Assembly (NCBI GenBank): GCA_034520565.1
Contig: JAXHNL010000002.1
Location: 480,001 to 544,000, forward strand
Origin: Halodesulfurarchaeum sp.
GTDB taxonomy: Archaea; Halobacteriota; Halobacteria; Halobacteriales; Halobacteriaceae
DNA: 64,000 bases
Direction of reading: 5' to 3'
Each line of letters starts with the position of its first letter. Position 1 is the stretch's first letter. The position numbers and the translations under genes were made by a program. A model generated the notes under the pieces. That model had not been told where the DNA came from and did no database searches. It saw only the letters and a program-made list of their open reading frames with translations. Positions 36,872 to 52,546 of this stretch are shown piece after piece.

Positions 36872-36976
36872 GGGCACGTAGCTCAGTCCGGACAGAGCGT
36901 CGGACTTCTATCCCGCACAGTGTTGCTGTGGGGGGAAGACATCCGACGGTCGCGGGTTCGAATCCCGTCGTGCCCG
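36872..36976 (+). tRNA. tRNA-Arg(UCU) with a 30-nt intron at 37/38 (36911-36940)
   Basis: Acceptor GGGCACG/CGTGCCC, D-arm GCTC/GAGC, anticodon stem TCGGA/TCCGA with TCT, T-arm GGTTCGAATCC; BHB motif (CTTC/GAAG central helix, TAT and ACA bulges). Confidence 0.96.
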
Positions 36977-37494
36977 TGAGTTTCCTTTCGGTTTCCGACC
37001 CGTACAGAGAACGGACGGAGAGACGCCCAAACAACCGGATTTGGGCAGTTCTCAAGAATCACTAAGCCCCCTCGATCTGGAGTTCGTTCAGCAACTTTGT
37101 GGCCCCCTTCGCCCTCACTCGGTTTTCAGATTCGTCGAAAGGGCAAACCTCGGTCTTCATTCTGCCACACTCGGCCAGCCACCCACCCACCTCGCCCGGA
37201 CCAAAGCGGGGCCCACCTGGCCCCCGACGGTCCGCGGCGTTGTTCCTCGAGCTTTCACAGCCGACGAAAGCGAGGGAGAGGGAGATCGCGCACGCCCGGC
37301 AGCGCAGCGACCGTTGGGAGCGAGCAGCCCGGAACGGTCCGCGGGCGCCAACCGCGGACCGCACGGGATCGACCGGCCGGAAGCGGGCCCCCTCCCACGG
37401 GGGCCCGACCCGGAAGCCCGAGCGCATCCCCCGAGCCCGAAGGGCGAGGGGGTTCCCGTCTGGCTGTGCGGTTTGCGGTGCGGTGGTGGTCGGT

Positions 37495-38844
37495 ATGCGT
37501 GAAGCAAACCGATCAGTCGAATCAGCCTCCGCATCGGAAAGCGCAAAACTAGATCAGTTCGCCTCTCGGCCTACCAAGACTAACTGTACAACCCCAGAAT
37601 CACGCTCTCTCCCGGCCGGTGAGAGCAGTTGGGAAGGATACTGGTGGAAACAGAAAAACGCACTCGTCGATCAGTTCGTCGAGGAGTATCCCAATCGGGC
37701 AGCCCGGCCAATTTCGGTTAGGGGCGGAGAACTTCTCCGCGAGGAGTGCACGCTCTCTCGACCGGAGGGAGAAGGACCCGTCTCAAAGTCGTGGTCGTCC
37801 GTTATGAACGAATACCTCAAGTGGTACAACGGATATCGAGATTCCCATCTGGTTTTTCGAGACCCCGACGGAAACCGAGTTCGTACCCAAATGGAAAACG
37901 CGCACATGCCCGAGTACGGCGACAAGTATTATGCCAAGTTGAAAGCCCTAGAGCGGCAGATCGCCTCCGAATACGATGATCTTCACATCGCGATGCTCAC
38001 CTTCACTGGCTCGACGAAGAACGGAAACGGCGGCTGGCGGGCTGTGTCAGACCACCTCCGGGACGTGATCGACAGTTGGCGGCCAGATCGCGGTCGAGGC
38101 GTCTATCACGCCCTTCGCGATTCACTCGAATGCCAAGAATGGGAATACGCCCTTGTCGTCGAGAAACACCAGAGTGGCTACGGGCACGTGCATTGTGCCG
38201 TGTTCGTCGACGGGGAGGTCGATGAGTCGGATTTTCATCCCGCTATTGATGCCCACCTTCGAACCTGCAACATCGCCCATCGGGATGCTCACAACTACTT
38301 TGCAGAGGATGAAACAACACGGCCCATTTCGGTGAGTAGTGTCGATACGGATCTCGATCCAAACCGGGGCGACGTGGACAAGATCACGAACGTTGGCACC
38401 TATATCGGCGAGTACATCGGCTCATACGGAGAACCATTGTTTGATCGGAGCATCGAAGAGCTAGCGTTTCGGGCAGCAGTATGGGCGACTGGGACCCAGC
38501 TCGTTCGGTTCAGTACGGGTGCAAATGAACTCATTCGGGAAGAACTTGACCGGGAACAAACCGAGTTAAAAGTGCCCGAGCTGGTCCAAAAACCTGAGTT
38601 CGATCCAGAAGCCGAAGATCCAGGAGAGACGGTTGAAGGTTCGCCTTTTGACGTGGTGAATAAAGGATGGTCACTCGAAGGCGTTGGAAGAGTGGATTCA
38701 GAGGGGGAGACAATATACGACGTTCAAAATAGTGGAGTGCAGTTTGTCGAAATAGCGGATTCTTCTCATCTAGATCCAATTAATTCTCAACCCCCGGATA
38801 GGCCACAACCGAGGGCTAAAGTTAGAGATTTAGAGAGCTTCTAA
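37495..38844 (+). CDS. rep: Rolling-circle replication initiator (HUH endonuclease, haloarchaeal plasmid/pleolipovirus type); start uncertain
   Basis: Motif I MLTFTG, motif II HQSGYGHVHCAVF, motif III YIGEYIG. Confidence 0.85.
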   Translation: MREANRSVESASASESAKLDQFASRPTKTNCTTPESRSLPAGESSWEGYWWKQKNALVDQFVEEYPNRAARPISVRGGELLREECTLSRPEGEGPVSKSWSSVMNEYLKWYNGYRDSHLVFRDPDGNRVRTQMENAHMPEYGDKYYAKLKALERQIASEYDDLHIAMLTFTGSTKNGNGGWRAVSDHLRDVIDSWRPDRGRGVYHALRDSLECQEWEYALVVEKHQSGYGHVHCAVFVDGEVDESDFHPAIDAHLRTCNIAHRDAHNYFAEDETTRPISVSSVDTDLDPNRGDVDKITNVGTYIGEYIGSYGEPLFDRSIEELAFRAAVWATGTQLVRFSTGANELIREELDREQTELKVPELVQKPEFDPEAEDPGETVEGSPFDVVNKGWSLEGVGRVDSEGETIYDVQNSGVQFVEIADSSHLDPINSQPPDRPQPRAKVRDLESF

Positions 38845-39088
38845 CCAACCAGAATTTGTGAGATGTGTCGGATTATTAATTGCTAATTTTCAATAGTCGT
38901 CAAACTTGCAATGATTTATTTTCTTCATAGGGGTTTGGTTAAATTATTAAAATTCAACGAGACTACTACAGAGCATCAGATGCCATTATGAGATTTATTT
39001 TTCTACATGACAAGGCGATATAAACGTATCAATTTTTCCGGGAAAACCCTATTTAATTGTCCTAATAGAGTGTAGACAGGGTAAGAAG

Positions 39089-39439
39089 ATGAGTGTGCCA
39101 AAGAGGAAGACAAAAAAATCCAATTCTATTTTTAAAGAGAGTGTAGAAAAGGAACACGAATGGTTGGAAAGTTTGGGAGTGGAAGAACTATCAGACATTC
39201 TTCAGAGCCATGCGGGTGAGCTCTCCCTTCGGTTTGCATCTGAACTGAATGGTTACTATGTTGTGGCAAATGAGGATAACGAAGGTTTGCAAGTGATTTA
39301 TTCCGGTTTAAGTGGGCCGGAACACAAACCAGTGAAATTGTCGAAAGCTAATTTGCGGAGACTTCAATCAAAATCAGAGTTGATCAGATTCGTCCCATAT
39401 GAAGAGTCTCCATTTGATTCATTTGTAATTAAAAAATAA
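39089..39439 (+). CDS. Hypothetical protein (116 aa)
   Basis: Clean ORF in AT-rich DNA with a TTTAATT TATA-like box upstream. Confidence 0.65.
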   Translation: MSVPKRKTKKSNSIFKESVEKEHEWLESLGVEELSDILQSHAGELSLRFASELNGYYVVANEDNEGLQVIYSGLSGPEHKPVKLSKANLRRLQSKSELIRFVPYEESPFDSFVIKK

Positions 39440-39470
39440 TTGGCGCGCTATACCTCTTTAGGAGGGAGTT

Positions 39471-39832
39471 CTACCAGAATTCCCAAGTGGGTTGGCTAAT
39501 TGCGAGGGTCCGGTCAGCCAGGGTTTCCTCGATGAGACTGCGAATCTCACTTGTGGAAAGAGACTTGGCCTTCTTTTCCAAGTGCGGAGCGTGATGCCGC
39601 ACTATTCGAATAAGGTTCTCTCGAGAACCTCCCATAACCTCCAATTCGCCGTTAATCACCACAGAGGGAATTCGGTTAGGAACTTTTTCCCCCTGGATTC
39701 TCCCATTGGAAGTCATCTCTTTCGCATTTTGACGGACGTGTCCATCGCTGTAACCGGTTCCATCTGCGATATCGGCCACGCGCGAGCGTCCGTTTTTGAA
39801 AGGTGGGCTTGAATAGCATCTTTGACGGTCAT
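39471..39832 (-). CDS. Winged-helix protein (homopolymer frameshift at ~39793-39797)
   Basis: Adding one A gives MTVKDAIQAHLSKNGRSRVADIADGTGYSDGHVRQNAKEMTSNGRI...PTWEFW; ATG overlaps the upstream stop. Confidence 0.6.
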
Positions 39833-40032
39833 TTGTTATCACCTCCATTGACGACCGTTTCTCTGCTCACAGCAGCAAGTTTCAAGTATTGGACCTCCGA
39901 AGGGAGATTTGTATCCCCAATAGATCCCATTGCCGTTGAGGCAGAGAGGCAAAACTGCAAGCCTTTCTCCTGGACCGAGAATGGCTGAGGCCGATGCGGT
40001 CGTGAGTGGTGATTTTCATCGCGTGTTATCAC
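39829..40032 (-). CDS. Short hypothetical ORF coupled to the wHTH gene
   Basis: ATGA overlap at 39829-39832; otherwise unsupported. Confidence 0.3.
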   Translation of the reverse strand: MITRDENHHSRPHRPQPFSVQEKGLQFCLSASTAMGSIGDTNLPSEVQYLKLAAVSRETVVNGGDNK

Positions 40033-40163
40033 CTAGCGCCTAGTAAATGGTGCCCCCACTTAAGGGTTCCCCGTGGTAACGTTACTGTGTGAATGTATGA
40101 TACAGTGAATTAGTAATTATACTATAGAAAAAGATATCCGCATTTGGTGCTATACTTTTAGTT

Positions 40164-40931
40164 ATGCCTTACCAAGTGCCCGACCGCGTTCACCTAATGC
40201 CGGTGGGGTTCGAGGAAGACAGAATATTCAAAGTTGCAGAAGATCTGAAGGCTGATAAAGTCGTATTAATAGCAAATAGGGGTGATTCGGATGACGCTCG
40301 CAAACACCTAGAGAAGGCAAAGCAAAAATTGATCGATATGGGTTATGATCCATTGGTAAAAGAGTGTGATATCTTTGATTTATATGAATCATTGGGCCTT
40401 ATTGCGAATATAATTGCCCAGTTTTCTGATGATGAAGTATACGTAAATGTCTCAACGGGTAGTAAGGTAACCGCGATTGCAGGGATGATTGCAGCTATGA
40501 TGACCGGAGCAAATGCCTACTATGCACGAGCTAAAGAATATAGATCGGATGACGTACCCCGTGGAATAGATACCATTTTCCAGCTGCCAAATTATCCTAT
40601 TGAATCCCCTGAGAAAAAGCATGTGTTAGTCCTAAAATACTTAGAAAAAAATGGAGAAATAGATGTTACTAAAAGTGATCTGATTGACTTTGCGGAAAAT
40701 AGTGGCCTCAAGTTCATTTCAGATAAAGATGTGAGTAGAAAGGCGAAGTACCGGCTCTTAGACAACCATATCATTTCCCCACTACTTAATCGGGGGTATA
40801 TTCGGATAGAGGAAAAGGGACGTAACCGACTAGTTAGTATTTCAAATGACGGGAGGGATTTTGTAGAGGCCTTTGGTTTCATGTCAAAAACATACGAGGA
40901 AAATGAGAAGAGCGCTATAACTGCTAGATAG
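40164..40931 (+). CDS. DUF6293/HFX_2341-family CARF-like + wHTH regulator
   Basis: VHLMPVGFEEDRI, VYVNVSTGSKV, C-terminal AKYRLLDNHIISPLLNRGYI..EKGRN wHTH. Confidence 0.8.
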   Translation: MPYQVPDRVHLMPVGFEEDRIFKVAEDLKADKVVLIANRGDSDDARKHLEKAKQKLIDMGYDPLVKECDIFDLYESLGLIANIIAQFSDDEVYVNVSTGSKVTAIAGMIAAMMTGANAYYARAKEYRSDDVPRGIDTIFQLPNYPIESPEKKHVLVLKYLEKNGEIDVTKSDLIDFAENSGLKFISDKDVSRKAKYRLLDNHIISPLLNRGYIRIEEKGRNRLVSISNDGRDFVEAFGFMSKTYEENEKSAITAR

Positions 40932-41093
40932 ATGAAAAGCGCATTATGGGATGGTTTTGAGTTTTTCTGAGAACCCTACTCCAAAAGGTTATTGTTCAAT
41001 ATTATGTAAAAGAATTTGATTTGGGTAAATGAAGTATGATCTGATGGGAGGCTGGACCGTTCGACCATTAACATTATGCAGTTTGGTTAGGAC

Positions 41094-44023
41094 ATGTATT
41101 CCATGGCTTCACCCTCCCCCGAAGCACGTTTTCATTCCAAGTTATTTGATAAATTAGACGACTATATTTATGAAAATGATACACCGTTCCATAATGTAAG
41201 CATTGAAGACCGTATGGAAGACGGGGGGCGAGCAGACATATTTGTTGAATCGAATCTAACAGAAAGTTTTGTTATAGAGGTCAAAAGGGACGATAAAAAT
41301 CCATTAAAGAAGGAGTTCATTACTCAAGCTAGAGATTACGCTAAAAGTAAGCAAGTTAGGTTCTTTGCCATTTGCAATTCAAATGATTATTTTTTATTTG
41401 ATTATCGGGGCGAGGTTAATGTAACCGATATTGATTTCCACTACCTAGATCTTCGCCAAGGGAATATCCGAGATCAAACGTTTGGTGGCCTGATCCCGAA
41501 GATGCTTCAAGCGGTACAATACCTTTCGAAGCATGACCAGCTTCCCAAGCAAAAGACACGCAAACAAATTGTTGGCGTAATTCGGTCATTCCATACCTCA
41601 ATTTGGCCCACCTACAAAGAATTGGCTAGGGAAGCATTTGGAAGAAACGCAGAATTCACCGAATACTTTGAAAATTGGGTAGCGGAAAACAACTATAGTC
41701 AAAGAGACAAGGATGAACAATTCGAAATTGCGGCTAAACAACATGCCTACCTCTTAGGTAATAAAATTCTATTCTATGACCTTATAAGGGACCGTACTCC
41801 AAGTGATATTCAAACAAAAAGTGGCTATAAACTAAATTCGCTTTACCAAACATCTTCCGGCAAAAATATAGATATTGAAGGTATAAAACCCAGAATTGAA
41901 CAGCAATTCAATCGTATTATAGAGGAGATTGATTACGAACCTGTTTTTAACGATTCTGATACTATATTTAGTTCCTTCCCTGAAAACCGAAAGACTCAGA
42001 GAGCTATCCAGACTCTTTTATCGAACTTTGAATCGAAACGCCTAGAAGAAGTGAACGAAGATCTCCTGGGTGAACTTTACCAAGAATTGATTCCTAAAGA
42101 TGAACGCCGGAATTTGGGGCAATTTTATACTCCGCCGTCAATTGCAGAAGCCCTAGTGAGATGGGCTATTGATTCATCGGATCAAGATGAGTTGCCTCGC
42201 ATTTTAGATCCAGCATCTGGGAGCGGGACATTTCCGGTTGAGGTATATGAGTATTTGCATCAGATATTTCCAGAAGCAAATCACCAAGAATTGATAGACT
42301 CGATATTTGCAGTTGACATTAACAAATTCCCCATTCATCTTACTTCCTTTAATCTTGCAATCCGAAATATTACCTCTGAGACAGATCAGATCCATACTAA
42401 AAACGGTTCATTCTTTGATGTATCTCCCACAGCAGAGACTCTAAATGCATTCACTAACAGCGGGCAAGAATTCACTGAAAATTTTGATGCAGTGGTGGGA
42501 AATCCGCCTTACATCTTCCATCAAAATTTGTTCCCTGATAAAGAGCATTTCCGCCATCATCTGACAAATTACCAAGACGAAAATGGGGAATCGCCATATT
42601 ATGACGGTGAAAAGAAATTTGATACCTATACTGACGCATATATTTACTTTGTGACTCACGCATTTCAATTTCTCAAAGAGGGGGAAAACTAGCATTCATA
42701 ATCTCTGCGAAGTGGTTAGATGTTGAATATGGATTCCCATTTCAGCAATTTTTGTTCGATAACGCCAAAATACAGTCAATTATTACATTTAACTCCCGTT
42801 CGTTCGAAGATGCATTAGTAAATACATCACTACTTTTAATTGAGAAGTGTTCAGATGCATCAGAGAGAAGAGAGACAGTAACCGACTTTATTCGCATTAA
42901 GAAGCAAACCCCTCCAAAGGACCTAGTAAGTACAATTGAACATGAGCGTACAATTCCTGAAGGAAAACCATACAAATTTGAATCACGTAGCGGATATCGT
43001 GTTTTTTCGCGTTCTCAAAGTGAACTAGAAAAAGAGGGACCACGGAAATTGGGATATTATCATTCTGCGCCCCGTCCCATTATTGACTTAATTGACAGTG
43101 GTTTATTCAAACCAATGAGTGACCTGCCATTCTCCCGTGTTCGTCGGGGTTACATGACTGGTGCTAATTCCTTCTTTATTTTAGATGAGGACGATGTCGC
43201 ACAATGGGGAATTGATCATAGATTTTTGAAGCCAGCAATCAAGAGTGTGAAAAATCTCCATGAGCTTAGAACTCCAGAGGATGGAATTGGTCTATATATT
43301 CTTGATCTTCGTGAATTTATAGAAGATACTCGCCATATCTGGAAAAATAGTGACAAAGATGAGTCGTTTGAAAATGCTGTGAAAGAGCGATTAAAGGAAG
43401 AAGGATACGAGAATACATATCAGTATATCAGATACGGTGAATCAGATGGGATTGATGAGATGTACAATCCTAGTCGGCGAAAGGTATGGTTCCAGCTTCC
43501 TGATTTGGTTGCTCCAGACGTACTCCACCCAGTTTTCTATAATGAAGATCTTTATACAATTAAGAACGACGGCGGATTAGTCCCATCGAATGCGATATTA
43601 TGTGTATGGTTTGAGGAATATCAAGACGTGATGAGAGGGATAATGAATTCAACATTATACAAAGTCATTCTAGAGGTTTGGGGCCGAAAGGAGGGAGGTG
43701 GGGCTCTTCAATTTCTTCCTGATGAGATAAAGTCAATTCCTATCCCAGACCCACGGTCGCTTGATGAAACAGCAAAAGAAACCGTAATTAAAAACGCTGA
43801 AAAACTTGAGTTTGATAGCGATGTTGGCCAAGATGATCTGGACAAGGCCATTCTTGATGGATACGATATACCCATTTCAGTTGACGATCTTCAACAGATG
43901 CAATCGCTAATGACAAAACAGAGGGTCGAAGGAGCAGAGGATACAACAATTCTTGTTCAGGATTTGGAGGAATTCGATGAATATGATCTCGAAGGGTTCA
44001 TAAAAAAGCAAAATGGGGGCTGA
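41094..44023 (+). CDS. Type IIG restriction-modification enzyme (nuclease + N6-adenine MTase + TRD), frameshift in G5 run at 42680-42684
   Basis: RADIF..VIEVKR PD-(D/E)xK; LGQFYTP; LDPASGSGTF; GNPPY; adding one G restores KEGGKLAFIISAKWLDVEYG into ORF 42752..44023. Confidence 0.85.
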
Positions 44024-44109
44024 GGGAACATTGTCAGTATCGTATGACTGACTTGGACATAATGTTGGCCTCAATCAGATTCTGCAATCCATGACTTTAC
44101 ATTCATTTT

Positions 44110-44532: not shown

Positions 44533-44793
44533 GAGTCCAGAAAAACTACCCATTACAAAAAAGGTACCGCATATATTGCATTACAAATAGTACGGTTACA
44601 AATTCATGATAAAGAATAAGTGACCCCCTGTTTAACCATTATTCGTCACGGCCCACTCGGAGCGTGACCCCGTCCAAAGAGACACGCCCCGAATCTCGCC
44701 GTGGCATCCAAGGTGGATGCATGCCCAAATACACACTTCAACACTGTAAGACTGCTGAAGGCGCGTACAGAATCAGAGCAGGTGCTATCCTCG

Positions 44794-45843
44794 ATGGGTG
44801 ACTTAGAACCCATCCCGCCTGCTGAGGCGGTCCAAATGTTTCACGAGGCTATGATCGACGAGCACGCGGAGTCCACTCGTCGAAGCGAAAAACATCGACT
44901 CAAAGCCTTCGTACAATTCTGCGATGAACACGGCATCGAGGACCTGACCGAATTAACGGGACGAGACCTCTATCTCTACCGGAGCTGGCGGAGAGAGGGC
45001 CAGGGCGATGACCGGGAACCGATAAAAACAGTCACGCTGAAAAGTCAGTTAGCGTCACTCCGTCGGTTCCTCCGCTTTGCTGCTGATATTGATGCTGTTC
45101 AAGCAACGCTCTATGAACAGGTTTCGCTGCCAGTCATGCGAAACGGTGAGGACGTCTCGGAATCAACTTTAGAGGCAGATCGGGCTCTCGAAATCCTGGA
45201 CTATCTCGAGCACGCACAACCCGCTTCGCGTGACCACATTATCGTTTTGCTCCTCTGGAAAACCGGGGCCAGAACCGGCGCAATTCGTGGGCTCGATCTC
45301 CGGGACTTGGATCTCGAAGGAACTCACCCACGCGTGTCCGGGCCGGCAATTCACTTCGTCCACAGACCCGATACGGGAACCCCGCTTAAGAACCAAGACA
45401 AGGGTACGCGGTGGAATCGAATCAGCGGGGTGACGGCCCGGTACATCTCTGATTACATCGAATACAACCGGCCCAACGTCACCGACGAACACGGGCGAGA
45501 ACCCCTCATAGCCACTCAGTACGGACGGCCGGCCGGGAATACACTCCGCACCACCCTGTATCGAGTGACCCGGCCCTGCTGGCGAAACGAACCGTGCCCC
45601 CACGATCGGGATACTGAGACTTGTGAGGCCACCCATTTGGATCACGCCAGCAAGTGCCCCTCCGCTCGATCACCCCACGATCTCCGAAGTGGGAGAGTGA
45701 CCTACTATCGTCGAGAAGACGTCCCCCGCCGAGTCGTCAAAGATCGGCTCAATGCCAGCGAAGACATTCTAGATCGGCATTATGACCGGCGTTCGGACCG
45801 AGAACAGGCAGATCAGCGAAGCGACTACCTCCCAGACCTATAA
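44794..45843 (+). CDS. int: Tyrosine integrase, SNJ2-like family
   Basis: TGARTG, PLKN, CPHDRD..C..CPSARSPHDLRSG, DRHYDRR; adjacent to tRNA-derived att. Confidence 0.92.
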   Translation: MGDLEPIPPAEAVQMFHEAMIDEHAESTRRSEKHRLKAFVQFCDEHGIEDLTELTGRDLYLYRSWRREGQGDDREPIKTVTLKSQLASLRRFLRFAADIDAVQATLYEQVSLPVMRNGEDVSESTLEADRALEILDYLEHAQPASRDHIIVLLLWKTGARTGAIRGLDLRDLDLEGTHPRVSGPAIHFVHRPDTGTPLKNQDKGTRWNRISGVTARYISDYIEYNRPNVTDEHGREPLIATQYGRPAGNTLRTTLYRVTRPCWRNEPCPHDRDTETCEATHLDHASKCPSARSPHDLRSGRVTYYRREDVPRRVVKDRLNASEDILDRHYDRRSDREQADQRSDYLPDL

Positions 45844-45943
45844 TAATGCCATGTGCCAACACTTGCAGGCCTAATTCCGAGATAGCGGGACCCCGTCGTG
45901 CCCGTACAGCGAGGAGCGGAGCGACGAGCGAACCGGCGCGCAT

Positions 45944-46025
45944 GGGATTTGAGCCCTGGAAGGCGCGCGCAACGAACGGAGTGAGTGAGCACGGCTTCCT
46001 CTGGTTCGAATCCCGTCGTGCCCGT
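45944..46025. repeat. T-arm-mimic inverted repeat ending in a 23-bp copy of the tRNA-Arg 3' end
   Basis: GGGATTTGAGCC..GGAAG / CTTCC..GGTTCGAATCCC; 46003-46025 identical to 36955-36977. Confidence 0.85.
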
Positions 46026-46267
46026 TCGGAGACAATCGTTTTCGACCATTCACAGAAAACCGTGAGAGCCAAGAAGACGGGTATTCTGGCCGTTCTCAAA
46101 GAACGTTTAGCCAACGGAATTTGGTGTCCATTCAGCATCTGAACGTCCCCTCATAAACAAATGGCCCATCATGCAGGGAGAACGAATCTGTTATTATAAC
46201 TAGGTTATACTCTATCCATAAAATTAGAAAAAGTGTTATCGGCAATACCTCTGAGAATATTTATAGT

Positions 46268-47632
46268 ATGGACAAATCGTTGCTCGCCACCTCATCAAAA
46301 ACTGTTCGAGAATCCGCTAAAGAGCTTGGTAAAATAGTAGAAACTGAGGAGTTGTATCTGCCACAAAATTCGCCAGTTTTCTATTTTTTGGATAGGTTTG
46401 GGTCGGGCTCTGTTAATGAATTTATTGAGAAATGGCCAAATTCGGAGTTTGAACCTATGGGGATGGCAATTGAAACTCCCGAAATCATTACATATTTGAT
46501 TAAAATTCATAGAAATCATGGAGCTTTCAATGGGAAACAGAAGAGGATAATTCAAGATATGATTGACAAAGTAATCCAAAATCAAAACGTCCACGGGCAG
46601 ATGTCAAATTACCATTCTAAACAGCTTAGAGCACTAATTTTATTCGATCCAAAATCTGAACCAGCAATAAATGGAGTGAGTCATTTGACATCAGAGGTTA
46701 TTCCCAATACAGCCTATACAAACAGATCACGTAGAATCCAAGAGTTAGCAAACGGAATTATTTCTCTTTGCGAATTAGATTATTACACATATGAGAATGA
46801 GATTGAGGAGGCAGCGTCACAAATTCGAGATTTAATTGATGACGGGCCTAAAAATGATGATCTTGAGAATATATATGACCCAAGCAATCTTGCAATAGCC
46901 CTTTCCAAACTCCAAAATTATAGGTTCGAATTTGAACAAAAATTGTCGGAAGTACTTATGAGAGAATTATCAAATAGAGATGACTTAAAAATTGGTTTGG
47001 ATGATATTGATGGACTATTTAGTCCCTACATAATCATTGGGAAGTCTTTAGTTGGCCTCTTGGCCCTTGGAAAAGGACCCAAAGCCCCGATTTATCAAAA
47101 TGATTGGGAAAAAGAACTCGAAAGGCAACGATTGGCCCGTTCTAAGGCCTCATTTGTTTCCACTCTCCCCGCGAGCGAGTTACAGTCACGTCGAATAGAG
47201 ATATATGAGAAGGCCTATTCTATCATTAATTCAGTTCAAAGCGAGTTGCGAATTTCCACACTAATGATGGATATGTTTTACAATGAAATTCTCGACCTTA
47301 TTGAGCAAGATTCTGATGTTCAAGTTCGCATACTTGCCAGACGAGAAGGACCAAAAGGGGAACGAAGGAGGATGAAAGAAGCCGTGATGAAGGAACTAGT
47401 TAAAGCAGGTGAATCGGAAATCGTTCGAGGAGACCATTTACTCCATAGTCGGATGATTATTGGTGATGACTCTGAACTGCTCGTTTCATCTGCAGATTTG
47501 ACACGAGATCGGCTATACGATGAATTTAATGCAGGGATCTATACTCGTGACCCAGACGCGGTAAATGAAGCTATTGAGTATTTTGACAATATTTGGAATC
47601 AAGGCAAATCGCTCGATGTGGAAAAGTATTAG
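46268..47632 (+). CDS. Protein with helical N-terminal region and C-terminal PLD-like domain
   Basis: HSRMIIGD..LLVSSADLT...FNAGI...YFDNIW (HxR variant of the HKD motif). Confidence 0.75.
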   Translation: MDKSLLATSSKTVRESAKELGKIVETEELYLPQNSPVFYFLDRFGSGSVNEFIEKWPNSEFEPMGMAIETPEIITYLIKIHRNHGAFNGKQKRIIQDMIDKVIQNQNVHGQMSNYHSKQLRALILFDPKSEPAINGVSHLTSEVIPNTAYTNRSRRIQELANGIISLCELDYYTYENEIEEAASQIRDLIDDGPKNDDLENIYDPSNLAIALSKLQNYRFEFEQKLSEVLMRELSNRDDLKIGLDDIDGLFSPYIIIGKSLVGLLALGKGPKAPIYQNDWEKELERQRLARSKASFVSTLPASELQSRRIEIYEKAYSIINSVQSELRISTLMMDMFYNEILDLIEQDSDVQVRILARREGPKGERRRMKEAVMKELVKAGESEIVRGDHLLHSRMIIGDDSELLVSSADLTRDRLYDEFNAGIYTRDPDAVNEAIEYFDNIWNQGKSLDVEKY

Positions 47633-48018
47633 ACTCTGTTGAAAATTTTTTTGATCAGTGGTATTTTGAGAACGGTCTCCTGAATACACCGCTCGTATTC
47701 ACCAATCGCATTCTCGGGAATCCCCCGGCACATCTTAATTTTTGTAGCATGGTCTTGTTGGCCAGGAAGCGGTCCAGAAAGTCTTGGGAAGGGAGTATTA
47801 GTTGATTCGGACTGAGCCCCCGCACTTTTGCTGTGCTATTTGAGAAGGTGAGGACGATACTAGTAGACAAGTGTTGCTCTCTTCGTGAAGTTTCTTACAG
47901 TGAAATGTGTCATGTCCGCCTGAGGGAGGTCAGTTAAATCATGGTAATGGGGCACATACCATTATGTCGAAAAGACATCCCTAAAGATGTCATCAACATT
48001 TAACATACGTTTGATAAT

Positions 48019-49578
48019 TTATTGTCGAATTATCTCATTCTGTAATGACCCGGGACTATTTCCAGTAATTCTATTTCTCATCTCAACTGCCTGGGACTCA
48101 GTCATATTAGATATCAAATCGGCTACAATCCTTGCCCGTAAGGTACAATCTTCGCTATCTATATTCTTAATTCGCTCCCGGTACGGTTCCATAATTAATG
48201 AGGTGTCTACAGATTCTGGGTCCGCTTCGTTGTACAATTCTTCGAATAGCACGTTAATAATTTCCTTTTGACCGGCTTGCTGAGCCGAAAGGGTAGGATT
48301 GCTTATCACGTAATAGAAGGTCAATTCCTTCAAAATTTCAATCTCTTTCATTAATTCTTCATCAACGTCCAACGTGGGCAACCCATCAACTGAATGGCCA
48401 ATTACACCAACATTACGTTCCGAAGGTTCCCGCTCCGTTGCTTCAATGTACCATCCTATTAAGGAGGATATTAACTTATTGAGCTGATTCCTTTCCCTTT
48501 GAGTACCCTCATATGGAGTAAATAGCGAGTCCCCAATAAATGCGAAATCTGTTAGCTTTATTAGAAAATCCAATACTTCAGGAAGAGTTGCTTCAACACC
48601 TGATTTATCAGAAACATATTCTGCAAAATCAAATACTTCCATATTATGTGATTTAGAGTGCTCCACAATTAGTCGATCATAATCCGGTAATTCATCAATT
48701 CCAGCCTCATCTGGTAGTTGTTTGAATAGCTCTTTTGCTTCCCGAAGCAGTTGATCAAGCGGAAGAAGACCACTTCTATAGAAATCCTCCACGTCGTGTA
48801 TCGCATAGGTCAAATCATCCGCAAAGTCCATGACTTCTGCTTCAATAACTTTATTGCGTCCACCGTCTGTCCCTGCCCTTGCAAAGTTAAAGTGGCTATT
48901 TTCGGAAGGGTAGTACCCCCATTTGTCATCAGTATCTTTGTCAGAAGCGATGTCTTCAGCATCTCGCTTCCACGGGTATTTTAGCATAGCATTTAAAGTA
49001 GCCCTAGTCAAATCCATCCCACATATACCGGGGCGATGCGTTCCCAGTTTAGTCACGGCCCGGAATGATTGGGCATTACCCTCAAATCCCTGGATGTTAT
49101 TATTCTCAATATCATCTGAATCTTCCTGGCCAGCTTGTTCTTTTGATTTTTGTCGGATTTTCAAATCTAGTAAGTTCTCAGTCTCGTGGCCAAACGGGGG
49201 ATGGCCAATATCATGGGCCAAGCAAGCAGCTTCCACTACATCTTCATTCAGATATTGCCCAAGGTTCTCAAATTCGCCACCATAATAATCTATTAATAAC
49301 TCAGCCAATCTACGGCCAACTTGGGCGACTTTCAAGGAGTGTGTGAGTCGGTCATGGTAAAGGTAGGATTCTCCAGTCCTAGCAACTTGTGTGACGTCTT
49401 TCAACCGCCTGAACTCACGGCTGTAGAGGATTCGGTCGCGATCTCGTTCAAAGGGAGTTCGCTGGTCACTAGGGTCAATGTTAATTGCTGCATCAGCTTC
49501 TAATTGTGAATCGTACTCTTCCTCCAAATTTTGGTCTAGTGCTGAAGGACGGCGCTCTCGAGGAAAATTTGAAGGCAT
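48019..49578 (-). CDS. dgt: dGTP triphosphohydrolase (HD family)
   Basis: FERDRDRILYS..FRRLKDVTQV, RLTHSLKVAQVGR, AHDIGHPPFGH, FEGNAQ, KYPW, ADDLTYAIHDVED. Confidence 0.92.
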   Translation of the reverse strand: MPSNFPRERRPSALDQNLEEEYDSQLEADAAINIDPSDQRTPFERDRDRILYSREFRRLKDVTQVARTGESYLYHDRLTHSLKVAQVGRRLAELLIDYYGGEFENLGQYLNEDVVEAACLAHDIGHPPFGHETENLLDLKIRQKSKEQAGQEDSDDIENNNIQGFEGNAQSFRAVTKLGTHRPGICGMDLTRATLNAMLKYPWKRDAEDIASDKDTDDKWGYYPSENSHFNFARAGTDGGRNKVIEAEVMDFADDLTYAIHDVEDFYRSGLLPLDQLLREAKELFKQLPDEAGIDELPDYDRLIVEHSKSHNMEVFDFAEYVSDKSGVEATLPEVLDFLIKLTDFAFIGDSLFTPYEGTQRERNQLNKLISSLIGWYIEATEREPSERNVGVIGHSVDGLPTLDVDEELMKEIEILKELTFYYVISNPTLSAQQAGQKEIINVLFEELYNEADPESVDTSLIMEPYRERIKNIDSEDCTLRARIVADLISNMTESQAVEMRNRITGNSPGSLQNEIIRQ

Positions 49579-49589
49579 TCCGAAAATGC

Positions 49590-49817
49590 CTAAGCTGAGA
49601 CCGATGCGTGGCTTGCCAATTTATACTCAAAGCCAGGGCTGGTTCCAATTTGGCCTTCATCAATCAGTTCTTGCAGAATATCTTTTACATCTTCCCTTCC
49701 TTCAGCGGATGTATTTTTCATCAAATGGTCTAGGGTCACTGGGCCATCACTTTCTATCAAGGCTTCAAATATTTCCGTCCGGAGAGAGTCTTCGCTTCCG
49801 CCACTATTTCGAATCAT
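49590..49817 (-). CDS. Small winged-helix protein upstream of dGTPase
   Basis: LRTEIFEALIESDGPVTLDHL...VKDILQELIDEGQI...YKL; 11-nt gap to the dGTPase ATG. Confidence 0.65.
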   Translation of the reverse strand: MIRNSGGSEDSLRTEIFEALIESDGPVTLDHLMKNTSAEGREDVKDILQELIDEGQIGTSPGFEYKLASHASVSA

Positions 49818-50333
49818 ACCTTGAGGATAGATTGGGTTCTACTTAGTTCTGATGTCAAATGGGGTACTTTGAATGCCAAATAATGGTACTAATCTAGACC
49901 GGATTATAGCCACGATTGCACCCAATTAACGAGACGTAATCATGAGGTTTTAAGTCGGTATATATGGTCTCCAAAATACATCACAAAGGAACCCCCCCCC
50001 AAGAGATTCAAAATCGGGAGATGTATGAAAATATCACCAAGCCACCTTACAAAATTGTAGGGTTGTGTCTATCTGGGCGAAATTATAGCCAGAGGATCTT
50101 CTCAGCTTCGCGACTTTCCACCCCTTCCCCGTGTTTCCCAAAGTAGAGCCGGTGAAGAGTCGGGTAACCCTCTCACCCGCTCCATTGCATCACTACGCTC
50201 GGTAGAACGCCGGCCTCAAGAGTGAGGTTTCCCTAGGTCCGGTGGGGATCGTGCGGCCCGAGGTACCGCCAGCCTCGATAGGGTCCTGCTTCTCAAGTTC
50301 CTCCGCAACGGTGGCAACCCATCGGCGAATCGT

Positions 50334-50459
50334 CCTCGTCGTGTCGTCAAAGACCGGCACAATGCCAGCGAAAACATTCTTGACCGGCATTATGAACGGC
50401 GTTCGGACCGCGAACAGGCTGATCAGCGGAGCGACTACCTCCCAGACCTACAACAATGA
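50334..50459 (+). pseudogene. 3' remnant of an SNJ2-like integrase
   Basis: PRRVVKDRHNASENILDRHYERRSDREQADQRSDYLPDL aligns to 45724-45843, with mostly third-position differences. Confidence 0.88.
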
Positions 50460-50555
50460 CATGTGCCAACACTTGCAGCGCAAATTCCGAGATAGCTGAA
50501 CCCCCCATCGTGCCCGCTTCTGCGACGAACGGAGGTGAGGAGCGAAGCGGCGCAT

Positions 50556-50617
50556 GGGATTTGAGCCCTGGAAGAGGAGCGAGCGCAGCGAGCGAGTCTT
50601 CCTTCGGTTCGAATCCC
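50556..50617. repeat. Second T-arm-mimic inverted repeat
   Basis: GGGATTTGAGCCCTGGAAG ... CTTCC..GGTTCGAATCCC, same architecture as 45944-46014. Confidence 0.8.
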
Positions 50618-50823
50618 TTCGTAGGCGATTTTAGGTGGCAATATTACTTTTAAAGGCCATACAATAGAGATGGGATGATTATATAGGGCAAGTTTTGGGC
50701 AGCTTGATATCAATCATACTCCGGTATTTCCAAAATATTGGGTTGGCGATTTTTTAATAATCTAATCTAAAAATATAAATTTTGCAAAAGAAACATTATG
50801 GCGGAGAAAGATAGGCCAGATAA

Positions 50824-51690
50824 ATGAAGCGAACGATAAGATTTGCTCGGCTTTCATTTGAAAGAAAGTTAAGTCACTATGAAAGCGACGAAAACCCCAT
50901 AGAACGGCGAAAGAAGGCGTTATTAGATGTGATTGATTTTGATTTGGATGTCAACCGCCTTCTTCTTGAGACCGATCTAAAAATGATACGGGATAGAGGA
51001 GATTGGTATTTTGGTGATGTGGAAACAGAAGAGTCCGTAATTTCAGGATGGATAGGTAAAGAAAAAGAAGAGATAGAGAAGCACGTTGATGAAGATAAAA
51101 AAGGATTCAAAGAGACGGAAGAAAGCAAGGCAGATGTGGCATTTTTCGTAATTGACGTAGCCAATTCTGTAATGGCCTATGAGTTTAGATCAAATGTTGG
51201 AGAAAAAGCACCATACCGAATTCTGGAAGGTGTATTTAATGTCTACCACAAAGGTGAAGAAGAACTCTCTATCTCTCCAATAGTTGATAAAGAGGAAGTC
51301 CGATCAGAGCTTGATAGGATTTCTAGAGTAACTCAGGTGAAGTTCCAAGGTCTAAAGCCAACAAATCCAGATCGAACTGATTTATCAAAGCCAATGGATG
51401 AGTTTCTACAAGAAGGAGGCATTGACCGCTTATTTTTCAATGGCAAAAGTGATGATTCGACAAGAGGAATAAATTTGGAGGTGCCACTTTTGAATGGGGG
51501 TCTTAGCTTAGCCGAAGAAGGATATGGTAGTGCTACGATTAGTGGGAAGATGAAATCAGGAGAAGACATAGTCGTTACAACGGATGAAAAACAAATAGAG
51601 TCAGAAGTTGATGAGGCGAAAACCGACAGAATGTATAGAAAAAGACTAATAAATGAAATCGGAGAAACACTGGAGGATCTCGAAAATTGA
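50824..51690 (+). CDS. DUF4747-like hypothetical protein
   Basis: 288-aa ORF; FFVID..SVMAYE, LKPTNPD and AEEGYGSATISG resemble DUF4747 from memory (unverified). Confidence 0.6.
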   Translation: MKRTIRFARLSFERKLSHYESDENPIERRKKALLDVIDFDLDVNRLLLETDLKMIRDRGDWYFGDVETEESVISGWIGKEKEEIEKHVDEDKKGFKETEESKADVAFFVIDVANSVMAYEFRSNVGEKAPYRILEGVFNVYHKGEEELSISPIVDKEEVRSELDRISRVTQVKFQGLKPTNPDRTDLSKPMDEFLQEGGIDRLFFNGKSDDSTRGINLEVPLLNGGLSLAEEGYGSATISGKMKSGEDIVVTTDEKQIESEVDEAKTDRMYRKRLINEIGETLEDLEN

Positions 51691-52274
51691 TGGATAACTC
51701 TAATATGTTTTATCGGTTAAAGGAATTCGGATTTAGAAATATTATCTTGAGTTACGATACCCTTGGAGGGGGTATCTCGTTTTTTATAGTATACATATAT
51801 CTTGATGGGAGCGTGCCTCGGGAAATTGGATCAGACATACTGCCAACTATCGCGGTAGTATCGTCCACGTTGTTTGCCATCGTTCTTACTGGATTTACTA
51901 TAATCACATCTTTTACAGACCGTTACTTCCTTTATGCCTGGAAAGAAGTGGGCGACTTTGATGGAGTTGTTACCCTCTTTCAGTATAATCTCGCCTTGCC
52001 AATAATTGTTATTTTGGCATCTGTATCACTTATAATAAATTATAATGGGGTCGGGATGATGATCTTGATCTCTCTATTCGTATACATGATCTTGTCCTTA
52101 CTTAATTTAGTGGGATTTATTTCCAAGTACTCATTGCAAAGAGCAGAATTCGTTAAACAACAAATGGAGAAATCTGCTAAACAATCACCAAAAAACCAGG
52201 ATGATGATCCAACGTTGTCAACAAAACAGCTTAAAAAAGTCAAAAACTTATTAACTGAATACCCAGATGAATGA
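51690..52274 (+). CDS. Four-TM membrane protein, translationally coupled to the upstream gene
   Basis: TGATG overlap; four hydrophobic segments and a charged C-terminal tail. Confidence 0.75.
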   Translation: MDNSNMFYRLKEFGFRNIILSYDTLGGGISFFIVYIYLDGSVPREIGSDILPTIAVVSSTLFAIVLTGFTIITSFTDRYFLYAWKEVGDFDGVVTLFQYNLALPIIVILASVSLIINYNGVGMMILISLFVYMILSLLNLVGFISKYSLQRAEFVKQQMEKSAKQSPKNQDDDPTLSTKQLKKVKNLLTEYPDE

Positions 52275-52311
52275 TTATTTATATTGAAGATTTGGGATTG
52301 TGACTAAGAAT

Positions 52312-52510: not shown

Positions 52511-52546
52511 CGAGAAGCACCACCAACACCCACCGACCGCCCCCAC

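What the first reader, a model, noticed from the sequence alone, without database searches (positions are those of the whole stretch)
36872..52310. tRNA-Arg(UCU) tandem-integration island accumulating candidate antiviral modules
Seen: tRNA 3'-end copies at 36964, 45892, 46003 (23 bp) and 50504 (degenerate). The unit [integrase end - conserved ~45-nt spacer - att - hairpin] occurs twice, separating three AT-rich cargo blocks: CARF-like regulator + IIG R-M; PLD + wHTH-dGTPase; DUF4747-like + 4TM. Inference: successive SNJ2-like integrations at one tRNA push older, decayed elements outward while their defence cargo is kept, giving an integron-like, age-ordered defence array in an archaeon.
Basis: partly seen in the sequence, partly recalled or inferred. 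Interest (0 to 1): 0.82.

Follow-up and report, generated by a model that had tools for sequence, protein, structure and literature searches.

The report
Tandem mobile elements at tRNA-Arg
A haloarchaeal tRNA-Arg gene is followed by one intact and two decayed mobile-element insertions that carry likely antiviral genes, an ordinary kind of genomic island whose internal attachment sites belong to an unexplained family of small hairpin units found behind many tRNA genes.

Summary
An intron-bearing tRNA-Arg(UCU) at 36872-36976 is followed by a 15.4-kb low-GC island. The island is split by two homologous junctions, each made of an integrase 3' end, a 48-nt spacer, a 13-nt att and a hairpin unit ending in a longer att copy.

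- **E1 (36977-45904)** is a complete SNJ2-type element without virion genes. It has a rolling-circle Rep, a Csa3-like CARF regulator, a frameshifted ~975-aa methyltransferase gene, a wHTH gene and an integrase 60% identical to SNJ2 Int.
- **E2 (46025-50516)** keeps both element ends but only 41 integrase codons. It carries a PLD protein and a dGTPase.
- **Block 3 (50628-~52332)** is a DUF4747/RexA-like gene plus a membrane partner, a λ RexAB-type pair. Its origin is unproven.

Genus relatives lack the island.

The hairpin and att units are not carried by the elements. They are chromosomal ~110-nt mini-units that follow 18 of 48 tRNA genes in this genome, so position alone does not give age. 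Nothing integron-like was found. PLD and dGTPase are not a conserved pair. Sister elements carry no recognisable defence genes.

Verdict: a new member of a known kind (tandem tRNA island). Two side results are the archaeal RexAB-like pair and the unexplained mini-units.

The parts
36872..36976 (+). tRNA-Arg(UCU) gene with a 30-nt intron. Its last 13 nt (36964-36976) are the att core, and its last 22 nt are the sequence copied downstream.
   Evidence: Rfam RF00005, 60.1 bits. ARAGORN -i: tRNA-Arg(tct) i(40,30). Orthologous tRNA plus left flank found in 39 of 41 genomes, G000 included.
36977..45904 (+). E1: a complete SNJ2-type integrative element without virion genes. The backbone is Rep, a cargo slot, wHTH on the minus strand, int, then att13.
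   Evidence: Same backbone as Halfgib1 and as ~5.8-kb sister elements in L033, L035 and L046. PHROGs finds only Rep, a regulator and the integrase among its genes.
37099..38844 (+). Rolling-circle Rep (DUF1424). The ORF as listed is probably too long at its N-terminus.
   Evidence: Pfam PF07232 2.2e-52, residues 210-497. phrog_10542 replication protein 2.8e-41. 26-27% identical to HHPV1/2 and Humcor2 Rep.
40164..40931 (+). Csa3-like CARF regulator (HFX_2341_N plus a C-terminal winged helix).
   Evidence: Pfam PF19810 2.1e-34, PF22665 4.6e-29, Csa3_N 2.5e-10. PADLOC CARF3 1.5e-81.
41094..44023 (+). One N6-adenine methyltransferase gene of Eco57I/type IIG-like architecture (~975 aa in relatives). 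Here it is split into 532-aa and 423-aa ORFs by a single frameshift in a G-run near 42680.
   Evidence: Pfam N6_Mtase 3e-19, Eco57I 2.1e-13. Homologues of 937-1015 aa, up to 80% identical over 99% of the first piece. tblastn of P0002 switches frame at residue 527. Run X1 contigs agree with the window at this site, while X2 shows another indel there.
44110..44553 (-). Winged-helix regulator, divergent from int, as in Halfgib1 and pHK2.
   Evidence: Pfam HTH_IclR 8.6e-05 and others. phrog_2440 3.4e-15. Homologues sit at the same place in 7 of 16 related loci.
44701..45843 (+). SNJ2-type tyrosine integrase, apparently intact.
   Evidence: 60.3% identity and 93% coverage to SNJ2 Int, 59.7% to HHPV4, 55.9% to Halfgib1. 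TGAR, HDxRSG and RHYDRR blocks conserved. 75-91% identical relatives at 16 loci in many genera.
45844..45904 (+). 48-nt spacer plus the 13-nt att core (45892-45904). This is the right end (attR) of E1.
   Evidence: The 48-bp distance and 14-bp core are described for SNJ2 subgroup I. An ORF starting at 45846 runs through att, like the attP-spanning CDS of Dyall-Smith et al..
45905..46024 (+). Mini-unit 1: a spacer, an imperfect hairpin, then an exact 22-nt copy of the tRNA 3' end (46003-46024).
   Evidence: The spacer matches a chromosomal mini-unit of relative G009. An X1 contig bridges 44560-48737.
46025..50516 (+). E2: a decayed element of the same family. It keeps a homologous left end, the PLD gene, the dGTPase gene, the last 41 integrase codons, the spacer and att13' (50504-50516).
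   Evidence: Left end 57% identical to E1's, score 18 against a shuffle maximum of -3. Int remnant 50328-50450 is 88% identical to residues 340-380. Junction alignment.
46268..47632 (+). 454-aa protein with a C-terminal PLD (HKD) nuclease-type domain. The N-terminal 320 residues are unassigned.
   Evidence: Pfam PLDc_2 2.2e-09. Only weak DrmC matches. Homologues in 8 of 400 other genomes, mostly solitary low-GC genes, none with a dGTPase within 1.5 kb.
48019..49578 (-). dGTP triphosphohydrolase (HD plus HD_assoc domains), a candidate dNTP-depletion defence gene.
   Evidence: PADLOC dGTPase 1.4e-89. NCBIfam TIGR01353 265 bits against a cut-off of 152. The antiphage_dGTPase model scores 222, below its cut-off of 400. 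Found in 5 of 60 other relatives.
50517..50627 (+). Mini-unit 2, ending in a degenerate tRNA-end copy (50606-50627, 18 of 22).
   Evidence: The spacer matches the G009 mini-unit next to the tRNA.
50824..51690 (+). DUF4747-family, RexA-like protein (288 aa).
   Evidence: 13 of 27 family members match PF15931, best E 4.7e-07, though the window's own copy does not. Model pLDDT 87. Foldseek: RdgC prob 0.99, λ RexA prob 0.96. VIA-align: RexA ranks first, Z 8.3, rmsd 4.6, 151 residues aligned, tied with CENP-N at Z 8.1.
51690..52274 (+). Membrane partner (194 aa) with three clear and one weaker hydrophobic segment. Its start codon overlaps the upstream stop codon (TGATG).
   Evidence: Hydropathy and sequence. 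Homologue immediately downstream in 3 of 3 close loci, 40-52% identical by tblastn.
52275..52332 (.). Right border of the island. The abrupt change to host GC falls about 12-25 nt beyond where relatives have the last mini-unit att. No right-hand att is left.
   Evidence: Sequence. Comparison with the G007 and G008 flanks.

Best explanation
The region is a composite genomic island built by site-specific integration at the 3' end of tRNA-Arg(UCU).

E1 is a complete integrative element of about 8.9 kb without virion genes, of the SNJ2-integrase / pHK2-Halfgib1 backbone type. It has a rolling-circle Rep, a compositionally foreign low-GC cargo slot, a divergent wHTH gene, a tyrosine integrase, and a 13-nt att 48 nt after int. 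Its integrase would recombine the 13-nt core of a circular form with the identical tRNA end.

E2 is an older or more decayed relative. It has lost Rep and all but 41 integrase codons, but keeps both ends around a PLD protein and a dGTPase.

Block 3 is a RexA-like plus membrane-protein pair. It lies exactly where a third att-directed insertion would lie, but it has lost, or never had, recognisable element ends.

The att copies that separate the blocks are not brought by the elements. They belong to ~110-nt chromosomal mini-units that follow many tRNA genes in this genus. Each unit ends in an exact copy of the tRNA 3' end, so the locus offered several equivalent landing sites.

The cargo is mostly candidate antiviral: a methyltransferase/restriction-type gene (broken here) with a CARF regulator, dNTP depletion by the dGTPase, and a RexAB-type abortive-infection pair.

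Shown: the anatomy, the homologies, and the absence of the island in relatives. Inferred: integration at mini-unit att copies, the order of arrival, present mobility, and every antiviral function.
For: - Integrase family and att geometry.
- Backbone shared with Halfgib1, which also targets a tRNA-Arg, and with L033, L035 and L046.
- tRNA-Arg(tct) lies upstream in 5 of the 10 related loci scanned.
- att13 lies 48-52 nt after int in 11 of 16 related loci.
- E1-E2 relatedness.
- Mini-units are chromosomal. They follow the same tRNA in G008, G001, G007 and G009 with no low-GC island, and they follow 18 of 48 tRNAs in this genome as 26 units. A second long att copy follows att13 in only 2 of those 11 related loci. 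Free SNJ2 and Halfgib1 lack mini-units.
- The same int-spacer-att14-mini-unit-att layout ends a 20-kb island at tRNA-Pro(cgg) with a different integrase.
- Cargo.
- Accessory distribution: RexA-like protein in 5 of 400 other genomes, PLD in 8 of 400, dGTPase in 5 of 60.
- The literature links a DUF4747 protein plus a four-TM partner to λ RexAB and to the Sbash and CarolAnn defence pairs (passages read).
Against: - Block 3's left end is not detectably homologous to E1 or E2, and it has no int remnant or right att. Its origin as an SNJ2-type element rests on position alone.
- No contig in the available runs joins across any element, so there is no sign of excision or of an empty site. Contigs drop rare forms, and one run is probably the source of the assembly.
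- No second integrase hit lies within 10 kb in the other 16 loci, so triple arrays are not shown to be common.
- 0 of 10 cargo ORFs from 6 sister loci match PADLOC, and none passes a Pfam cut-off.
- The methyltransferase gene is frameshifted.
- The dGTPase is below NCBIfam's antiphage cut-off.
- The RexA-like fold match is only marginally above unrelated folds in VIA-align (Z 8.3 against 8.1), and the window's own protein does not hit PF15931.
- PADLOC sees neither block 3 protein.
Confidence: 0.75

Rival explanations
1. Each element carries the whole unit (int end, spacer, att13, hairpin, att22). Every integration happened at the tRNA itself. Older elements were pushed outward, so the array is strictly ordered by age. 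Mini-units elsewhere are footprints left when the integrase recombines the tRNA att with the inner att13.
For: Both junctions have the same composite layout, as does the tRNA-Pro island end. Decay increases with distance from the tRNA. Two related loci in other genera also have att13 followed by a long att copy about 100-130 nt further on (L035, L040).
Against: Free SNJ2 and the Halfgib1 record show int, a spacer and a 13-14-nt att with no mini-unit. 9 of the 11 related loci with att13 have no second long att copy. Mini-unit spacers in the junctions match chromosomal mini-units of G009. The mini-unit att identity (>=18-22 nt, starting in the T-loop) is longer than the SNJ2-type core of 13-14 nt. 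Mini-unit arms do not resemble the element's attP arms.
Confidence: 0.12
2. E2, and possibly block 3, is a non-autonomous cargo cassette and not just debris. By keeping both att-proximal arms it stays excisable and integrable in trans by the integrase of E1 or of a relative. The locus would then work as a multi-slot docking site for integrase-less defence cassettes, integron-like in outcome though not in mechanism.
For: E2 keeps a homologous left end (57%). It also keeps the last 41 int codons, the spacer and att13 at 88% identity to E1. Remnants limited to the int 3' end recur in other genomes: L047 with 59 codons and L048 with 33 codons, and in L048 a spacer and att follow the remnant. SNJ2 Int alone suffices for excision (passage read).
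Against: No joined or circular forms were seen. Retention of the ends could be chance, because deletions that remove att leave nothing recognisable. att13' and the long att after E2 are already degenerate. Block 3 lacks a right end.
Confidence: 0.2
3. The low-GC blocks are unrelated horizontally acquired DNA that accumulated at a recombination-prone tRNA locus by mechanisms other than SNJ2-type integration. The cargo may have no antiviral role and be ordinary accessory genes.
For: Block 3 has no element hallmarks. PLD homologues elsewhere are solitary low-GC genes without integrases in the 1.5 kb fetched on each side. Sister elements' cargo is unassignable.
Against: E1 and E2 have clear element ends at att copies. 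The dGTPase, the RexA-like pair and the methyltransferase all belong to families with documented or proposed antiviral members.
Confidence: 0.1

Closest known systems
SNJ2-type integrase elements of haloarchaea (Wang et al. 2018, PMC5861418; section 17 read in full, other passages by search)
   Same: Integrase 60% identical to SNJ2 Int with the same catalytic blocks. The att is the last 13-14 nt of a tRNA gene, 48 nt after int. The paper describes two elements reduced to a replication protein plus the integration module, which is what E1's backbone is.
   Different: The target is tRNA-Arg(UCU), not tRNA-Met. Replication is by a DUF1424 rolling-circle Rep, not Orc1/Cdc6. There is no co-oriented Orf2/Orf3 operon. 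The cargo is a CARF regulator and a methyltransferase gene. I could not see Table S5, so a tRNA-Arg subgroup may already be listed there.
Halfgib1 / Halfvol3 proviruses and plasmid pHK2 (Dyall-Smith et al. 2021, PMC7911831, passages read; GenBank MW344766)
   Same: The same gene order (Rep, then wHTH on the minus strand, int and a 13-nt attP), integration at a tRNA-Arg, 56% integrase identity, and a CDS running from the int end through attP.
   Different: Halfgib1 carries the pleolipovirus virion genes (VP3-like, spike, NTPase). E1 has none.
Tandem genomic islands at tRNA genes (tandem-integrated archaeal MGEs are mentioned in the review PMC8371274, passage read; SGI1 tandem arrays PMC2297512, search listing only)
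   Same: Several related elements sit in the same orientation at one tRNA, separated by att repeats, with progressive decay.
   Different: Here the internal att repeats sit inside pre-existing chromosomal hairpin mini-units, not as simple attR/attL junctions.
λ RexAB and the actinophage pairs Sbash gp30/31 and CarolAnn gp44/43 (PMC6426596, PMC6426606, PMC11077077; passages read)
   Same: A ~290-aa DUF4747-family protein whose predicted fold is closest to RexA and RdgC, followed immediately by a small multi-TM protein. The pairing is conserved and sits on mobile DNA.
   Different: The host is an archaeon. There is no detectable sequence match to the bacterial proteins or to PADLOC models. The pair is not next to an immunity repressor. 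Its function is untested. The RexA structure paper has 0 mentions of archaea.
Integrons
   Same: Cargo accumulates next to a recombination site through a tyrosine recombinase, and imperfect hairpins lie between cargo blocks.
   Different: The integrase is SNJ2-type, not IntI. There is no attI and no common promoter. The hairpin units do not flank single promoterless genes. Genes lie on both strands. The units occur behind many tRNAs with no cargo.

Membership tests
SNJ2-type tyrosine integrase family | >30% identity and >90% coverage to SNJ2 Int (criterion used by Wang et al. 2018) | tested here: met
   60.3% identity, 93% coverage.
SNJ2-type tyrosine integrase family | Catalytic R...K...HxxR...Y residues | tested here: met
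   TGAR, TPLK, HDLRSG and RHYDRR blocks align with SNJ2 and Halfgib1 Int. This is by alignment only, with no activity assay.
SNJ2-type tyrosine integrase family | att core is the 3' end of a tRNA gene, 13-14 bp, at a fixed short distance after int | tested here: met
   The 13-nt core starts 48 nt after the stop codon. The paper gives 48 bp and 14 bp for subgroup I. 11 of 16 related loci show the same.
SNJ2-type tyrosine integrase family | Orf2 (coiled coil) and Orf3 (MarR wHTH) co-transcribed with int | tested here: not met
   No ORFs sit upstream in the same orientation. The only wHTH gene is divergent. The paper states that many members lack these factors, so this feature is not strictly defining.
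SNJ2-type tyrosine integrase family | Integrase-dependent excision and integration | not testable with these tools
   Contigs of 2 runs show no joints across the elements. This is uninformative.
Pleolipovirus provirus | [quoted passage not shown] | tested here: not met
   No such matches among E1-E3 proteins in Pfam or PHROGs.
Integron | IntI-type integrase, attI, a common promoter, and single promoterless cassettes each ending in attC | tested here: not met
   The integrase is SNJ2-type. Blocks hold several genes on both strands. Hairpin units also occur behind 18 of 48 tRNAs without cargo.
RexAB-type exclusion pair | RexA-like DUF4747 protein | tested here: inconclusive
   13 of 27 homologues hit PF15931, but the window's own copy does not. 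Foldseek gives RexA prob 0.96. VIA-align gives Z 8.3 at rank 1, but tied with CENP-N at 8.1.
RexAB-type exclusion pair | Adjacent small four-TM partner | tested here: met
   194-aa protein with 3 clear and 1 weaker hydrophobic segment and an overlapping start/stop. Partner conserved in 3 of 3 close loci. No sequence match to RexB models in PADLOC.
RexAB-type exclusion pair | Exclusion of superinfecting virus by membrane depolarisation | not testable with these tools
Anti-phage dGTPase (role recalled from Tal et al. 2022, not read here) | Full-length dGTP triphosphohydrolase of the defence clade | tested here: inconclusive
   PADLOC dGTPase 1.4e-89. NCBIfam TIGR01353 passes (265 against 152), but antiphage_dGTPase scores 222, below its cut-off of 400. 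Patchy distribution, 5 of 60 relatives.
Type IIG restriction-modification enzyme / MADS MAD2 | Single polypeptide with nuclease, gamma-class N6-adenine methyltransferase and target-recognition domains, intact | tested here: inconclusive
   The methyltransferase and Eco57I domains are clear. The nuclease is supported only by a sub-threshold HSDR_N_2 match (E 0.0095). NCBIfam MAD2 scores 48 bits against a cut-off of 720. The gene is frameshifted here.
CARF (Csa3-like) transcription regulator | CARF Rossmann-like domain plus a C-terminal winged helix | tested here: met
   PF19810, PF22665 and PF22662 above cut-off. PADLOC CARF3 1.5e-81.

The most novel reading that the evidence does not exclude
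The ~110-nt units behind tRNA genes may be a previously undescribed family of att-bearing structured elements. Each has GA-rich hairpins with a GCGAAGC-type loop, an inverted T-loop-like arm, and an exact direct copy of the tRNA 3' end. By multiplying integrase landing sites, they would turn tRNA loci in this genus into multi-slot docking arrays. Integrase-bearing elements such as E1 and integrase-less cassettes that keep both att arms, such as E2, could then be parked and exchanged side by side without ever touching the tRNA itself.
Probability: 0.2. Interest if true: 0.75.

Novelty: new member of a known kind. Interest (0 to 1): 0.45.

Why it matters
The island is a clear, well-delimited example of how haloarchaea collect accessory and probably antiviral genes at a tRNA through SNJ2-type integrases. 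It shows that this small Rep-Int backbone has a cargo slot filled with compositionally foreign, low-GC genes.

Two by-products may matter more than the island itself.

First, a DUF4747 protein plus a membrane protein looks like λ RexAB. If that is confirmed, one of the oldest known abortive-infection systems would extend to archaea.

Second, tRNA-end-bearing hairpin mini-units are numerous in this genus. They change how att repeats at tRNA loci should be read, because an internal att copy is not necessarily the scar of an integration.

Tried and rejected
- Complex prediction on the RexA-like protein and its membrane partner gave no verdict (score 0.00). It counts neither for nor against binding.
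- The look-up of sequencing runs listed no RNA holder. The three runs are metagenome contigs from one study, and one may be the source of the assembly. Laying them showed no joints across E1, E2 or block 3 and no empty site. That is uninformative, because contigs drop rare forms.
- Rfam at E<=1 on 45800-50700 gave only two sub-threshold, implausible matches, and nothing for the mini-units.
- I first thought the left hairpin arm was an inverted copy of each tRNA's own end. The control rejects this as a general rule. Own tRNA gives 11.3 of 16 matches and other tRNAs 10.3 of 16. For the acceptor-specific 12-mer, only 1 of 28 units reaches >=10. The arm is mostly a generic inverted T-loop-like sequence.
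- I first read all three left ends as homologous by eye. Alignment supports this only for E1 and E2.
- The class-wide pattern scan (107 of 401 genomes) is confounded. The GAACCC variants can be real tRNA T-arms on the other strand, so only the GAGCCC variant is specific to mini-units.
- An alignment included the ORF 50242-50499 as the 'int remnant'. It is in the wrong frame. The true remnant is 50328-50450.
- Paper searches with 'haloarchaea / tRNA gene / inverted repeat / integrase / tandem' and passage searches in PMC7911831 and PMC8371274 turned up no description of the mini-units. That does not show that none is in print.
- Supplementary tables of the SNJ2 paper (Table S5, subgroups and targets) could not be opened.

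Full report
**The observation.** Rfam finds a single tRNA in the window at 36872-36976 on the plus strand (60.1 bits). Default ARAGORN misses it because it carries a 30-nt intron. With introns allowed, ARAGORN calls tRNA-Arg(tct). From about 37500 to 52330 the GC content falls to 0.34-0.57 for most of the stretch, against 0.64-0.71 in the flanks. It rises locally at 44500-46000 (up to 0.61) and at 50000-50500. The last 13 nt of the tRNA recur exactly at 45892 and 46012, and with one mismatch at 50504. That makes 5 matches at <=1 mismatch in the window against 0.38 expected, and 0 of 100 shuffles reach 5. The last 22 nt recur exactly at 46003-46024, with 0 expected. A degenerate copy (18 of 22) lies at 50606-50627. 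The stretch 45724-45894 is 88% identical to 50334-50504, and the similarity continues through the following hairpin.

**The elements.** The integrase at 44701-45843 is 60.3% identical to SNJ2 Int over 93% of its length. It is 59.7% identical to HHPV4 Int and 55.9% to Halfgib1 Int. It keeps the TGAR, HDxRSG and RHYDRR blocks. The att 13-mer begins 48 nt after its stop codon. Wang et al. (PMC5861418, section 17 read) report a 14-bp core 48 bp after int for their subgroup I. They report over 500 such integrases in haloarchaea, and two elements reduced to a replication protein plus the integration module.

E1 (36977-45904) has the gene order of Halfgib1, which also integrates at a tRNA-Arg. The order is a DUF1424 rolling-circle Rep (2.2e-52), a cargo region, a divergent wHTH gene, int and att. 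E1 has no virion genes. Close relatives of the integrase (75-91% identity) occur at 16 loci in many genera. In 3 of them (L033, L035, L046) the same Rep-cargo-wHTH-int backbone forms an element of about 5.8 kb next to tRNA-Arg(tct). In each, a 2-3-kb low-GC slot sits between a higher-GC Rep and int.

E2 (46025-50516) begins with a left end 57% identical to E1's (score 18 against a shuffle maximum of -3). It ends with the last 41 integrase codons, the spacer and a one-mismatch att13.

Block 3 (50628-~52332) follows the degenerate att copy. It ends about 12-25 nt beyond the point where relatives G007 and G008 have their last att copy. Its left end is not detectably homologous to the others (32-34% identity, within shuffles), and it has no integrase remnant.

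**The hairpin units.** The part of the junction from the hairpin to the long att copy also matches places next to six other tRNA genes in the same genome. A census was made of the 48 ARAGORN tRNAs of 180 nt or less. Of these, 18 have at least one copy of their own last 18 nt (<=3 mismatches) within 900 nt downstream. That gives 26 units of 76-176 nt, up to three in tandem. Most units fold into one or two hairpins whose loops follow GAGCGAAGCGAG-like patterns, with tandem G-A mismatches around a GCGAAGC-type mini-hairpin. The extraordinary stability of that mini-hairpin as DNA is the subject of PMC13037366 (search listing and start of abstract only). The loop motif occurs 68 times against 30 in a reversed-sequence control, and 28 of the 68 lie within 1 kb downstream of tRNAs.

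The 3' arm of the main hairpin is the exact tRNA end. The 5' arm is mostly a generic inverted T-loop-like sequence and not a tRNA-specific copy: own tRNA gives 11.3 of 16 matches against 10.3 of 16 for other tRNAs.

The same tRNA-Arg(UCU) in genus relatives is followed by one to three such units and then directly by the chromosomal flank, with no low-GC island. This holds for G008, G001 and G007. G011 has a partial unit, G010 has none plus a different small insert, and G009's contig breaks at the tRNA. The spacers of the two junction units match the two units of G009. Free SNJ2 and the Halfgib1 record have int, a spacer and a 13-14-nt att, and no such unit. Of the 11 related loci with att13, only 2 (L035, L040) have a second long att copy 100-130 nt further on.

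I conclude that the units are chromosomal features of tRNA loci, and that the element's own att is the 13-mer. The observed order is tRNA, E1, att13, unit, E2, att13', unit, block 3. It is most simply explained by insertions at the tRNA and at the att copies of two pre-existing units. Alternatively, new units may have arisen at the tRNA between insertions. The data do not distinguish these two possibilities. The order of arrival is therefore suggested only by the gradient of decay, not fixed by position.

The same layout closes a 20-kb island at tRNA-Pro(cgg) with a different, frameshifted integrase. The mini-unit-specific core variant GATTYGAGCCCTGGAA occurs 8 times in this genome and 3-4 times in each of three genus relatives. 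It also occurs in about 14 genomes of other genera, once as two copies 111 nt apart. The overall count of 107 of 401 genomes is inflated by true tRNA T-arms.

**Cargo of E1.** E1 carries a Csa3-like CARF regulator (PADLOC CARF3 1.5e-81). It also carries one N6-adenine methyltransferase gene of Eco57I-like architecture. Its relatives are single proteins of 937-1015 aa, up to 80% identical. Here a single frameshift in a G-run near 42680 splits the gene. Contigs of run X1 agree with the window at that site, while run X2, which shows many single-base gaps, has a different indel there. A nuclease domain is supported only by a sub-threshold match. The MAD2 model is far below its cut-off.

**Cargo of E2.** E2 carries a 454-aa protein with a C-terminal PLD domain, and a dGTP triphosphohydrolase. 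The dGTPase hits the PADLOC model at 1.4e-89. It passes NCBIfam TIGR01353 but is below the antiphage_dGTPase cut-off. The two genes are not a conserved pair. PLD homologues occur in 8 of 400 other genomes, mostly as solitary ~1.4-kb low-GC genes, and 0 of 8 have a dGTPase within 1.5 kb. The dGTPase is patchy, in 5 of 60 other relatives.

**Cargo of block 3.** The 288-aa protein belongs to a family in which 13 of 27 members hit DUF4747, although the window's own copy does not. A confident model (pLDDT 87) is closest to RdgC and λ RexA by Foldseek (prob 0.99 and 0.96). RexA also ranks first in the independent VIA-align search (Z 8.3, rmsd 4.6, 151 residues aligned), though tied with CENP-N-like folds. 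The next gene overlaps it by one base and encodes a 194-aa protein with three clear and one weaker hydrophobic segment. That partner is conserved in 3 of 3 close loci. A DUF4747 protein followed by a four-TM protein is the architecture of λ RexAB and of the experimentally shown Sbash gp30/31 and CarolAnn gp44/43 defence pairs (passages read). The family is rare, in 5 of 400 other genomes.

**Against generalising.** 0 of 10 cargo ORFs from six sister loci match PADLOC, and none passes a Pfam cut-off. None of the 16 related loci shares any cargo gene with this island.

**Comparison and verdict.** The island is a tandem array of SNJ2-type elements at a tRNA gene. That kind of structure is known in archaea and bacteria, and the element type has already been described. 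It is not integron-like in mechanism.

It is not supported on two: the idea that the hairpin/att units belong to the elements, and the claim that position records age.

What is new:
- the target-specific subgroup with its cargo slot;
- a RexAB-like pair in an archaeon, which needs experimental testing;
- the abundant tRNA-trailing mini-units, for which I found no description in the searches made and no convincing mechanism.

Whether E2 is debris or a cassette that can still be mobilised in trans remains open.

Noticed in passing
G000:C2, e.g. downstream of tRNA-Leu(tag) 1246168, tRNA-Ser(tga) 1261162, tRNA-Val(gac) 1042945, tRNA-His(gtg) 673678 (outside the window); in the window 45905-46024 and 50517-50627: Tandem ~100-170-nt mini-units follow 18 of 48 tRNA genes. 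Each ends in a copy of that tRNA's 3' end, exact or nearly so, and is built from hairpins with GAGCGAAGCGAG-type loops. Their origin and function are unknown.
   Followed up: partly
window 2951-4092: A CRISPR array of about 16 copies of a 37-nt repeat with 33-39-nt spacers. None of the 14 spacers extracted matches the tRNA-Arg island. One spacer (3652-3686) matches 24 of 26 nt inside the 20-kb element at tRNA-Pro(cgg) (G000:C2:722211-722236). E1 carries a Csa3-like CARF regulator.
   Followed up: partly
G000:C2:706770-727000 (outside the window): A second tRNA island, about 20 kb at tRNA-Pro(cgg). It ends in a frameshifted integrase (32-37% identical to E1's), a 65-nt spacer, a 14-nt att, a mini-unit and a long att copy.
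   Followed up: partly
window 52333-52530 (-): Only the C-terminal part of a histidine-kinase ATPase domain is readable between the island and the permease-Usp gene. The same sequence follows the tRNA locus in G007 and G008, so the stub or gene is native and was not cut by the island.
   Followed up: partly
L013 (G001:C1:2053900-2065900), positions 1167-1492: In relative G001 the three mini-units carry the att variant CCCACCGTGCCCG, while the tRNA itself ends in CCCGTCGTGCCCG. The mini-unit variant equals the tRNA end of relative G010. This hints that either the tRNA end or the units were exchanged.
   Followed up: no
L025-L032 (PLD homologue loci): Most homologues of the 454-aa PLD protein sit as single ~1.4-kb low-GC (about 0.40) genes flanked on both sides by host-like GC (0.6-0.7), as if the gene moves alone.
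   Followed up: no
window 45846-46142 (+): A 98-aa ORF starts 3 nt after the integrase stop and runs through att13, the mini-unit and the long att into E2. Its start corresponds to the attP-spanning CDS that Dyall-Smith et al. describe for pleolipoproviruses, which is split in the integrated state.
   Followed up: no
G000:C2:355930, 762606, 762720, 902356, 1212855, 1395021, 1395073, 1410361: Hairpins with the same GAGCGAAGCGAG-type loop, but not within 1 kb downstream of a tRNA gene. The loop motif therefore marks a wider family of intergenic hairpins.
   Followed up: no
L048 positions 9591-10300 and L047 positions 10001-10177: In two other genomes only the last 33 or 59 codons of this integrase type survive. 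In L048 a spacer and att follow the remnant, about 300 nt after tRNA-Arg(tct) and next to a mini-unit-like hairpin.
   Followed up: partly
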